A DNA stretch of 24,000 nt from Tissierella praeacuta (GTDB lineage: Bacteria > Bacillota > Clostridia > Tissierellales > Tissierellaceae): NCBI RefSeq assembly GCF_040396155.1, contig NZ_JBEBOY010000001.1, positions 243,208 through 267,207 of the forward strand, in the 5' to 3' direction. Numbering within the stretch: the first letter of the stretch is position 1; the number at the start of each line of letters is the position of its first letter. Shown one piece after another: positions 19,236 through 19,957 of this stretch. The translations under genes were made by a program, and so were the position numbers. Below the pieces are notes generated by a model, which ran no database searches, was not told where the DNA came from, and saw nothing but the letters and a program-made list of their open reading frames with translations.

Positions 19236-19805
19236 TTAATCTTTGTTAATGATTTTCCCTAGAATCAACATCAAACTTACTATAAAAATTGATACAGCTA
19301 TAATTAATGCTATTTCTTTAAAATTCAATACTAATAAGGCTATAGTAATTATTATCTCTATAATAAGAATGATACTTGTCCTTTTTTTATATATAGCCCT
19401 TTCCTCTTTATCTAAAGGCTTATTGCGATCTTCTACAGGTGCTAAAAACCAGATTATAATTCCACCTACTTCTGTTAAGCCTAAGATTACCACATCTGTC
19501 TCTGGAATAATTTTTATCCCTAATAATACTACTAGAATTAGAACTATAGAAAACAAATAACATCTAACTTCACTTTTAGCATGGTATCCTCCTCCATAGG
19601 TTCTAAGTGGAGTATATACTATCATAAATAAAATGCTTTCCCATACTGCTCTAAACATAAATCCTATTAGGATTGTTGTTGTGATGTTTAGTAATATTAG
19701 AAGTCCTTGATGTAATCCATAGGCATAAATCTGTCTATCCTCATCTTTTATTAGCTCATTAACAATAAAGTAGTTTGTTATCTTCTCAATCATATTATTA
19801 GCCAT
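19236..19805 (-). CDS. agrB: AgrB-type membrane endopeptidase (AgrD-processing enzyme)
   Basis: 189 aa, polytopic. It carries the AgrB catalytic signature LRTYGGGYHAKSEVRCY (R-x3-GG-x-HA ... C; compare S. aureus RRHAHGAHAPSSFWCY). Its start codon overlaps the stop of the upstream AgrD ORF (TAATG). Confidence 0.9.
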   Translation of the reverse strand: MANNMIEKITNYFIVNELIKDEDRQIYAYGLHQGLLILLNITTTILIGFMFRAVWESILFMIVYTPLRTYGGGYHAKSEVRCYLFSIVLILVVLLGIKIIPETDVVILGLTEVGGIIIWFLAPVEDRNKPLDKEERAIYKKRTSIILIIEIIITIALLVLNFKEIALIIAVSIFIVSLMLILGKIINKD

Positions 19806-19957
19806 TAATTTTTACGAAGTTTTTCTGCACCTTTTGGTAATTCAGGCTGATAAGCAAGATACATACATGTTGTATTTACATTCATGGATGTTACCATCAA
19901 TGCTAAACTTGCAAGAACTCCACTAAACCTTAAAATAACTTTCTTCAACCGAATCAT
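19805..19957 (-). CDS. agrD: AgrD-type autoinducing-peptide precursor (50 aa from ATG 19957; 47 aa if TTG 19948 is used)
   Basis: Not in the ORF track. Translation is MIRLKKVILRFSGVLASLALMVTSMNVNTTCMYLAYQPELPKGAEKLRKN. It has an amphipathic basic leader, a single Cys followed by four hydrophobic residues, then a charged YQPELPK tail. AAAGGAG SD at 19958-19964. The stop at 19807-19805 shares its last A with the agrB ATG. Confidence 0.82.
   Translation of the reverse strand: MIRLKKVILRFSGVLASLALMVTSMNVNTTCMYLAYQPELPKGAEKLRKN

What the first reader, a model, noticed from the sequence alone, without database searches (positions are those of the whole stretch)
19805..19957. Unannotated AgrD-type autoinducing-peptide precursor with a predicted CMYLA thiolactone ring
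A 50-codon minus-strand ORF below the ORF-track cutoff lies directly upstream of agrB: MIRLKKVILRFSGVLASLALMVTSMNVNTTCMYLAYQPELPKGAEKLRKN. It has the three-part AgrD architecture. There is a basic amphipathic membrane-anchoring leader, a single Cys followed by four hydrophobic residues, and a charged C-terminal recognition tail beginning YQPELPK. The tail resembles clostridial AgrDs as I recall them (for example ...CLWFT-HQPEEPKSL in C. perfringens). By analogy AgrB would cleave after Ala and form a C-M-Y-L-A thiolactone. The N-terminal exocyclic tail length cannot be predicted. The stop shares a base with the agrB ATG (TAATG), implying translational coupling. TTG 19948 is better spaced from the AAAGGAG SD than ATG 19957 and would give the more typical MKK... 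start. I do not recognise this ring sequence from any described AIP.
Basis: partly seen in the sequence, partly recalled or inferred. Interest (0 to 1): 0.8.

Follow-up and report, generated by a model that had tools for sequence, protein, structure and literature searches.

The report
Tissierella AgrD autoinducer precursor gene
The small minus-strand ORF is a genuine AgrD quorum-sensing peptide precursor of a Tissierella species, but it is an ordinary one: the identical peptide is already named "cyclic lactone autoinducer peptide" in public databases.

Summary
It scores 44.8 bits on NCBIfam TIGR04223 (AgrD family; cut-off 19). It overlaps by one base (TAATG) an AgrB gene (Pfam E=2.8e-44) that keeps the invariant His75/Cys82. 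It evolves under purifying selection (dN/dS about 0.2).

The host is a Tissierella species.

An ungapped alignment to C. difficile AgrD1 (AIP ANST[CPWII]) supports the CMYLA ring. So does a fixed Cys-x4-[H/Y]Q spacing in 129 of 139 anchorable family representatives. CMYLA is one of more than 100 ring variants, and I found no paper describing it.

Two caveats apply:
- Many clostridial AIPs have no N-terminal tail and rearrange to homodetic cyclopeptides, so the final product need not be a thiolactone.
- In this strain the adjacent AgrC-like kinase carries a Trp158-to-TGA stop and the LytTR regulator a 2-bp frameshift. Both recur in three independent run assemblies, so the local sensing arm looks broken.

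Verdict: interpretation supported, but the finding is routine and of low interest.

The parts
19805..19948 (-). agrD, 47 codons plus stop, from TTG 19948 (MKKVILRF...). Alternative in-frame starts are ATG 19957 (50 aa) and ATG 19984 (59 aa).
   Evidence: Hits TIGR04223 at 44.8 bits. Orthologue alignment places ATG at the TTG position. dN/dS is about 0.2. The identical 47-aa RefSeq protein is WP_308878120.1.
19853..19867 (-). Codons for the predicted macrocycle C-M-Y-L-A (residues 28-32 of the 47-aa form). The predicted AgrB cleavage site follows Ala32, before Tyr33-Gln-Pro.
   Evidence: Ungapped alignment to C. difficile AgrD1 ...ANSTCPWIIHQPK. Known rings are [CPWII] and [CLWFT]. Cys lies 5 residues before [H/Y]Q in 129 of 139 family representatives. 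Ring positions 2-5 vary while the flanks are invariant.
19958..19964 (-). Shine-Dalgarno sequence AAAGGAG, 9 nt upstream of TTG 19948 and 0 nt upstream of ATG 19957.
   Evidence: Read from the sequence. GGAG/GGGG is conserved at this place in orthologous loci.
19236..19805 (-). agrB (189 aa). Its ATG shares one base with the agrD stop (TAATG). The putative catalytic residues are His75 (19583..19581) and Cys82 (19562..19560).
   Evidence: PF04647 E=2.8e-44. R68, G72-G73-Y74-H75-A76-K77 and C82 are invariant among 9 AgrBs down to 28% identity.
19983..19988 (-). Candidate -10 hexamer TACAAT (TATAAT in relatives). It overlaps ATG 19984, which argues against the 59-aa form.
   Evidence: Conserved in alignments of orthologous upstream regions. 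Its function is inferred, not shown.
20016..20051 (-). Two exact 14-nt direct repeats TAAGTTTCAACAAA with a 22-bp period. They are candidate LytTR (AgrA-type) binding boxes of an autoinducible agrDB promoter.
   Evidence: Found by the repeat finder as family D2. These are the only exact copies in the window. They are conserved in Tissierella loci and recognisable in L006 and L007. The binding role is inferred from the known AgrA arrangement of 9-bp repeats with a 12-13 bp spacer.
20074..20107 (-). Terminator-like hairpin plus T-run directly after the kinase gene. It would separate the RR-HK unit from the agrDB unit.
   Evidence: It is the only terminator-like site found in 18500..22500. The hairpin arms are conserved in relatives.
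20122..21405 (-). AgrC-like sensor histidine kinase (multi-pass N-terminal part plus HATPase_c_5), interrupted by an in-frame TGA at codon 158 (20934..20932), where T. pigra has Trp (TGG).
   Evidence: The same sequence appears in three independent run assemblies.
21402..22119 (-). AgrA-like response regulator (REC plus LytTR), split by loss of one TA unit in a TA run at about 21859..21866. This gives ORFs of 98 aa and 144 aa.
   Evidence: The T. pigra and Tissierella MAG orthologues are intact at 241 and 239 aa. The frameshift context is identical in L015.

Best explanation
The ORF is the agrD gene of an agr-type quorum-sensing locus in a Tissierella species (Bacillota, Tissierellia). On the minus strand the order is LytTR response regulator, AgrC-like kinase, terminator, promoter with two direct repeats, agrD, agrB.

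Inferred mechanism:
1. A 47-aa precursor is translated from TTG 19948, and agrB is translated by coupling at the TAATG overlap.
2. The basic, hydrophobic N-terminal leader takes the precursor to the membrane.
3. AgrB (His75/Cys82) cuts between Ala32 and Tyr33, removing the tail YQPELPKGAEKLRKN.
4. The thiol of Cys28 attacks the acyl-enzyme to give a five-residue C-M-Y-L-A thiolactone.
5. An unidentified protease removes the leader. If no tail is left, a spontaneous S-to-N acyl shift would give cyclo(CMYLA) with a free thiol.
6. The peptide would normally be sensed by the adjacent kinase. The LytTR regulator would then bind the two 14-nt repeats to autoinduce agrDB.

In this particular strain both sensing genes carry disruptive mutations, so that feedback arm is probably inactive.

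What is shown: family membership of AgrD, AgrB, kinase and regulator; conservation; the start codon; ring register; and the mutations. What is inferred: the cleavage site, cyclisation, the promoter boxes and expression.
For: - Family assignments: TIGR04223 at 44.8 bits against a cut-off of 19. AgrB, HATPase_c_5, LytTR and REC domains are present.
- Public annotation: the identical peptide is named 'cyclic lactone autoinducer peptide' in RefSeq and IMG. The homologues are all from Tissierella or relatives.
- Conservation: A16-L20, N26-V27-N28, C31, Q37-P38 and L40-P41 (50-aa numbering) are invariant, while the four residues after Cys vary. dN/dS is 0.18-0.26.
- Start codon: supported by orthologues.
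- Ring register: ungapped 38% identity to the C. difficile AgrD1 fragment aligns CMYLA with CPWII. Published rings are [CPWII] and [CLWFT] (PMC12312760). Ring length is 5 in 129 of 139 representatives, with 119 distinct rings.
- AgrB: the GGYHAK...C motif is invariant.
- Regulatory region: direct repeats, a -10 box and a terminator-like hairpin.
Against: - There are no expression or chemical data.
- Pfam has no hit for the peptide.
- The cognate kinase and regulator are disrupted here. An AgrA-dependent promoter may therefore fire only at a basal level, and the peptide may be made in small amounts or not at all.
- The -35 region is poor and the repeat boxes match the S. aureus AgrA consensus only in part.
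- Tail length and final connectivity (thiolactone versus lactam) cannot be predicted.
Confidence: 0.9

Rival explanations
1. Same gene and same AgrB step, but the mature signal has no N-terminal tail. It therefore rearranges by S-to-N acyl shift to a homodetic cyclopentapeptide, cyclo(Cys-Met-Tyr-Leu-Ala), with a free thiol. On this reading the thiolactone is only a short-lived intermediate.
For: Molloy et al. 2021 (PMC8251862) found that every native AIP they detected in several Clostridia lacked an N-terminal extension and behaved as a lactam. C. perfringens [CLWFT] and C. acetobutylicum [CVLVTL] are listed without tails.
Against: The closest characterised relative by sequence, C. difficile AgrD1, is listed with a four-residue tail, ANST[CPWII]. 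The residues just before Cys (NVNTT) are invariant in the Tissierella family, which could reflect either a retained tail or a protease site.
Confidence: 0.35
2. The locus is a decaying or signal-blind agr system in this strain. Because the kinase and regulator are broken, agrDB is not induced and the peptide has no local function. Alternatively it is sensed only through a paralogous agr locus elsewhere in the genome.
For: The kinase has Trp158 changed to TGA and the regulator has a 2-bp deletion. Both are identical in three independent run assemblies. Tissierella sp. MB52-C2 carries three agrD genes with the same CMYLA ring, so paralogous receptors are plausible. agrC and agrA mutants are common in S. 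aureus isolates (PMC12312760).
Against: agrD and agrB are fully intact here. agrD differs from the contig L002 copy only by 4 synonymous changes. From general knowledge, a TGA at a Trp codon can be partly read through as Trp in Bacillota. Only 24 kb of the genome is visible.
Confidence: 0.4
3. AgrB cuts one residue later, giving a six-membered ring C-M-Y-L-A-Y like the C. acetobutylicum and R. cellulolyticum AIPs.
For: Six-residue macrocycles exist in Clostridia: [CVLVTL] and CWFWSY.
Against: Position 33 alternates only between His and Tyr (rarely Asn) and is followed by invariant Gln. It therefore behaves as part of the conserved recognition tail, not of the hypervariable ring. The aligned characterised peptides with HQP tails have five-residue rings. 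Six-membered rings are described as a feature of a separate clade.
Confidence: 0.05
4. The ORF is a chance reading frame in an AT-rich intergenic region.
For: It is short, and Pfam finds nothing.
Against: TIGR04223 E=9e-12. There are 556 cluster representatives at E<=0.001. The frame is under purifying selection. The position next to agrB is conserved.
Confidence: 0.01

Closest known systems
Clostridioides difficile AgrD1/AgrB1 (AIP ANST[CPWII])
   Same: The leader core (SLAL), the N-S/T-T-C motif before the ring, the five-residue hydrophobic ring and the [H/Y]QP-x-x-P tail all align without gaps. The precursor is paired with an AgrB.
   Different: The ring sequence is CMYLA rather than CPWII. 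Here the precursor gene sits upstream of agrB and overlaps it, next to an agrC/agrA-like pair, whereas the C. difficile agr1 locus consists of only the two genes agrB1 and agrD1 (PMC8534292). No chemistry has been done for Tissierella.
Clostridium perfringens AgrD (AIP [CLWFT])
   Same: Five-residue Cys-initiated ring. From my memory of the precursor sequence, it is followed by HQPEEPK, and the register of Cys to the two prolines (+7 and +10) is the same.
   Different: The C. perfringens peptide is reported without a tail. Its receptor is not encoded at the locus (agrBD only).
Staphylococcus aureus agrBDCA
   Same: The four components are the same: AgrB with the His/Cys dyad, an AgrD of about 46 aa in three parts, an HPK10-type kinase and a LytTR regulator. 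The regulatory region has paired direct repeats with a period of about 21-22 bp.
   Different: The gene order is A-C then D-B, in two units. No RNAIII-like element was found (Rfam gave only a tRNA). The staphylococcal Pfam AgrD model does not match. The tail is net basic rather than acidic. The AgrC/AgrB equivalog models score far below their cut-offs.
Ruminiclostridium cellulolyticum Rc-AIP1 and other clostridial cAIPs (Molloy et al. 2021)
   Same: AgrB/AgrD-derived cyclic peptide in an anaerobic Bacillota with several agr loci per genome. The same thiolactone-to-lactam rearrangement is possible.
   Different: Rc-AIP1 has six residues (CWFWSY). Whether the Tissierella peptide loses its tail is unknown.

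Membership tests
AgrD family cyclic lactone autoinducer peptide (NCBIfam TIGR04223) | Score above the curated cut-off of the family profile | tested here: met
   44.8 bits against a cut-off of 19, E=9e-12, covering residues 11-44 of the 50-aa form and profile positions 3-36 of 38.
AgrD family cyclic lactone autoinducer peptide (NCBIfam TIGR04223) | Small precursor (about 40-50 aa) encoded next to an agrB gene | tested here: met
   47-50 aa, overlapping agrB by one base. The same arrangement occurs in 10 related loci.
AgrD family cyclic lactone autoinducer peptide (NCBIfam TIGR04223) | Three-part build: N-terminal membrane-targeting leader, Cys/Ser-initiated core, charged C-terminal tail with conserved proline(s) | tested here: met
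   The leader has net charge +3 with a hydrophobic stretch (mean Kyte-Doolittle hydropathy, KD, up to 1.8). The ring CMYLA is uncharged. The tail has 6 charged residues out of 15 and contains QPELP. Cys and QP..LP are invariant in the family. The leader looks more uniformly hydrophobic than strongly amphipathic (helical hydrophobic moment, muH, 0.3-0.37).
AgrD family cyclic lactone autoinducer peptide (NCBIfam TIGR04223) | [quoted passage not shown] | not testable with these tools
   Needs LC-MS/MS of culture or heterologous co-expression. The expected masses are given.
Staphylococcal AgrD (Pfam AgrD model) | Match to the Pfam AgrD profile | tested here: not met
   There was no Pfam family at E<=1. 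From my own knowledge, that model is built on staphylococcal sequences, so this is not a member of the staphylococcal subgroup.
AgrB (PF04647) peptidase | Profile match plus the conserved His and Cys seven residues apart (His77/Cys84 in S. aureus AgrB; Qiu et al. 2005, from knowledge) | tested here: met
   E=2.8e-44, 151 bits. H75 and C82 are invariant in 9 AgrBs. Catalysis itself was not tested. No solved structure is available for comparison.
agr two-component sensing arm (AgrC-type HPK10 kinase plus LytTR regulator) | Intact kinase with multi-pass sensor and HATPase_c_5, and intact REC-LytTR regulator, adjacent to agrBD | tested here: not met
   The domains are present, but the kinase has an in-frame TGA at codon 158 and the regulator a 2-bp frameshift. 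Orthologues in T. pigra are intact.
agr autoinduction promoter | Pair of direct repeats for a LytTR regulator upstream of the biosynthetic genes | tested here: inconclusive
   Two exact 14-nt repeats with a 22-bp period are conserved in relatives. Binding and induction were not tested.

The most novel reading that the evidence does not exclude
The strain is a natural producer that cannot sense its own signal, or senses it only through paralogous receptors. Its product is a tail-free CMYLA peptide that rearranges to a homodetic cyclopeptide. If so, Tissierella, with several agrD copies per genome that share one ring, would use AgrD peptides in a way that departs from the classical one-locus autoinduction loop.
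Probability: 0.2. Interest if true: 0.35.

Novelty: already known. Interest (0 to 1): 0.15.

Why it matters
It matters little beyond correct annotation. The peptide belongs to a family that routine pipelines detect with TIGR04223. RefSeq mining has already listed about 35,000 AgrD precursors, of which only 43 AIPs have been chemically identified (PMC12180512). The modest value is that no Tissierella AIP has been characterised. The CMYLA ring, the fixed five-residue register and the predicted masses give a ready target for synthesis or LC-MS. The broken kinase and regulator give a natural example of agr decay outside the staphylococci.

Tried and rejected
- Pfam scan of the peptide gave no hit. 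The NCBIfam model was the informative one.
- A full-text search for 'CMYLA' returned only unrelated strings. Searches combining Tissierella with AgrD found no study of a Tissierella agr system.
- The supplementary tables of the two genome-mining papers are not held, so I could not check whether this peptide is listed there.
- A PDB sequence search with AgrB found nothing.
- An Rfam scan found only a tRNA and no RNAIII-like or other RNA at the locus.
- I looked for further copies of the repeat box, for example upstream of the regulator gene or of the downstream secreted-protein genes. There were none beyond chance.
- The split kinase in the Tissierella MAG (L004) is due to a masked run of N and says nothing.
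- I considered the 59-aa form (ATG 19984) and rejected it. The ATG lies inside the conserved -10 box and is lost in L001 and L002.
- I considered a six-residue ring and rejected it as unlikely.

Full report
**Observation.** The minus strand of 19805..19957 carries the 50-codon ORF exactly as quoted.
- The mechanical ORF runs further upstream to ATG 19984 (59 aa).
- Its TAA stop (19807..19805) shares one A with the ATG of a 189-aa ORF (19236..19805). That ORF is AgrB (PF04647, 151 bits, E=2.8e-44).
- AAAGGAG lies at 19964..19958. ATG 19957 abuts it, and TTG 19948 follows after a 9-nt spacer.

The description is accurate.

**Is it a real gene, and of which family?**
- Pfam has no hit for the peptide. 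NCBIfam TIGR04223, 'AgrD family cyclic lactone autoinducer peptide', matches at 44.8 bits against a curated cut-off of 19 (E=9e-12).
- A word-indexed search found 20 homologues of 65-100% identity. Those that carry a name are all called 'cyclic lactone autoinducer peptide', from Tissierella pigra, T. carlieri, T. creatinophila and Lutispora.
- The exact 50-aa sequence is in IMG/ENA under that name. The 47-aa form that starts at the TTG is identical to RefSeq WP_308878120.1 of Tissierella sp. MB52-C2.
- A scan of one genome per species with AgrB found the nearest loci in a Tissierella MAG (90%) and T. pigra (84%). The genus belongs to Bacillota, class Tissierellia.
- Against orthologues, agrD has dN/dS of 0.18-0.26. 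It shows only synonymous changes against the metagenomic copy L002.
- A profile of the 21 sequences, run against 1.84 billion cluster representatives, finds 556 relatives at E<=0.001 and 67 at E<=1e-10.

**Start codon.**
- In close relatives both ATG 19957 and TTG 19948 are kept.
- In the more distant loci L006, L007 and L008 the codon aligned with TTG 19948 is ATG and the ORF is 47 aa. In T. creatinophila a stop codon lies immediately upstream of it.
- ATG 19984 lies inside a conserved TATAAT-like box (TACAAT here). It is replaced by ATC in L001 and L002.

**Ring and cleavage site.**
- In the family alignment the leader core (ASLAL), NVN, the single Cys, and QP..LP are invariant. The four residues after Cys vary.
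- Among the best 150 representatives, 129 of the 139 that can be anchored on the tail have the last Cys exactly five residues before the [H/Y/N]-Q position. The other ten appear to have a second Cys inside the ring (I did not check them one by one). There are 119 different five-residue rings.
- The C. difficile AgrD1 fragment FASSLALSTAILSANSTCPWIIHQPK (PMC8534292) aligns without gaps and places CPWII on CMYLA.
- The published AIPs are ANST[CPWII] for C. difficile and [CLWFT] for C. perfringens (PMC12312760 Table 1).
- Cleavage after Ala32 (47-aa numbering) and a C-M-Y-L-A macrocycle are thus the best-supported prediction.
- A six-residue ring, as in C. acetobutylicum or R. cellulolyticum, is unlikely. 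Position 33 behaves as part of the conserved tail.
- No paper in the library contains CMYLA in this sense, and none studies a Tissierella agr system.

**The enzyme.** AgrB keeps R68, the G72-G73-Y74-H75-A76-K77 motif and C82. These are invariant among nine AgrBs down to 28% identity. They correspond to the His/Cys pair seven residues apart that is catalytic in S. aureus AgrB (established knowledge, not tested here). No solved structure matched by sequence. No SD-like sequence at a workable distance precedes the agrB ATG (the nearest, AAGGTG, lies about 20 nt upstream). The one-base stop/start overlap is conserved as TAATG or TAGTG, which fits translational coupling.

**Regulatory context.**
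- Upstream on the same strand lie a REC-LytTR regulator and a kinase with HATPase_c_5.
- A terminator-like hairpin follows the kinase gene at 20107..20084. It is the only such site in 4 kb.
- Next come two exact 14-nt direct repeats TAAGTTTCAACAAA with a 22-bp period (20051..20038 and 20029..20016), and then TACAAT.
- The repeats and the -10 box are conserved across Tissierella loci.
- This resembles the paired-repeat sites of AgrA-type regulators. It suggests a separate, autoinducible agrDB unit. That reading is an inference.

**A caveat on chemistry.** Molloy et al. (PMC8251862) showed that the native AIPs they detected in several Clostridia lack an N-terminal extension. These rearrange from thiolactone to homodetic cyclopeptide. 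Whether the Tissierella peptide keeps a tail, as C. difficile's is reported to, cannot be predicted. 'Thiolactone' is therefore secure only for the AgrB product, not for the released signal. Cyclised masses for tails of 0-5 residues are given.

**A caveat on function in this strain.**
- The kinase reading frame contains TGA at codon 158, where T. pigra has TGG, Trp.
- The regulator has lost one TA unit of a TA run. This splits it into 98-aa and 144-aa ORFs, whereas T. pigra and the Tissierella MAG have intact proteins of 241 and 239 aa.
- In the assemblies of three separate sequencing runs, every stretch that overlaps the locus is 100% identical to the window. The kinase stop is present in all three. 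The regulator frameshift is in the only one that reaches it, L015.
- The changes are therefore unlikely to be assembly errors, though the runs may come from one project. The sensing arm next to agrDB is probably inactive here.
- Other Tissierella genomes have several agrD genes with the same ring, so paralogous receptors may exist elsewhere in the genome.

**Comparison and novelty.** In build and predicted mechanism this is a standard agr system of the clostridial type, closest to C. difficile AgrD1.
- It passes the family tests that can be run in silico.
- It fails only the staphylococcal Pfam model and, in this strain, the intactness of agrC and agrA.
- RefSeq mining with the same two models (PF04647, TIGR04223) has already listed 29,921 plus 4,704 AgrD precursors, with only 43 AIPs characterised (PMC12180512).
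- The identical peptide already carries the right name.

I therefore rate the finding as already known at the level of annotation. The ring sequence is chemically uncharacterised, and interest is low (0.15).

Noticed in passing
window 20932..20934 (-), within the kinase gene 20122..21405: There is an in-frame TGA at codon 158 of the AgrC-like kinase, where the T. pigra orthologue has Trp (TGG). It is identical in three independent Logan run assemblies (L015-L017).
   Followed up: yes
window about 21859..21866 (-), within the regulator gene 21402..22119: The LytTR response regulator is split into 98-aa (REC) and 144-aa (LytTR) ORFs by loss of one TA unit of a TA run, relative to T. pigra and a Tissierella MAG. 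The 144-aa ORF starts with its own ATG, so a free-standing LytTR domain could in principle be made.
   Followed up: partly
L005 (Tissierella pigra) 2901..3436 and 5358..6570: T. pigra has a segmental duplication. The first copy is agrD with a truncated 118-aa agrB. Two ORFs of unknown function follow (283 aa and 172 aa, no Pfam family). Then come a 108-aa kinase C-terminal fragment and a second agrD with a full agrB. Both agrD copies encode the CMYLA ring.
   Followed up: partly
L006 (Tissierellaceae bacterium HCP3S3_D8) 1550..2256 and 5852..6558: Two complete agrD-agrB pairs lie about 4.3 kb apart, both with ring CMFLA. Tissierella sp. MB52-C2 has three annotated agrD genes with ring CMYLA. 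Multiple agr loci with the same ring seem common in this group.
   Followed up: no
window 18590..19235: A stretch of about 650 bp lies between agrB and the next gene with no ORF over 33 aa and no Rfam hit. The next two genes (18083..18589, 168 aa with a signal-peptide-like N-terminus; 17125..18006, 293 aa with a lipoprotein-like N-terminus) match no Pfam family.
   Followed up: no
window 19970..19985 and 20055..20070: A 16-nt AT-rich direct repeat (AAT[G/A]AATATACAAAAA on the minus strand) flanks the repeat-box promoter. In L001 and L002 the proximal copy is duplicated by a 24-bp insertion.
   Followed up: no
protein P0042: An 88-aa relative has Tyr in place of the ring Cys (NTTYMCLAYEP) and reads through into agrB-like sequence. 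It looks like a degenerate agrD copy.
   Followed up: no
window 12477..12557 (-): A tRNA gene is the only Rfam match in the window. The rest of the window is housekeeping: BipA/TypA-like GTPase, Lon, ClpX, ClpP, trigger factor, a phosphoglucosamine mutase-like gene, the CCA-adding enzyme, FabF and ACP. These names come from reading the ORF translations, except for the CCA-adding enzyme, FabF and ACP, whose Pfam domains appear.
   Followed up: no
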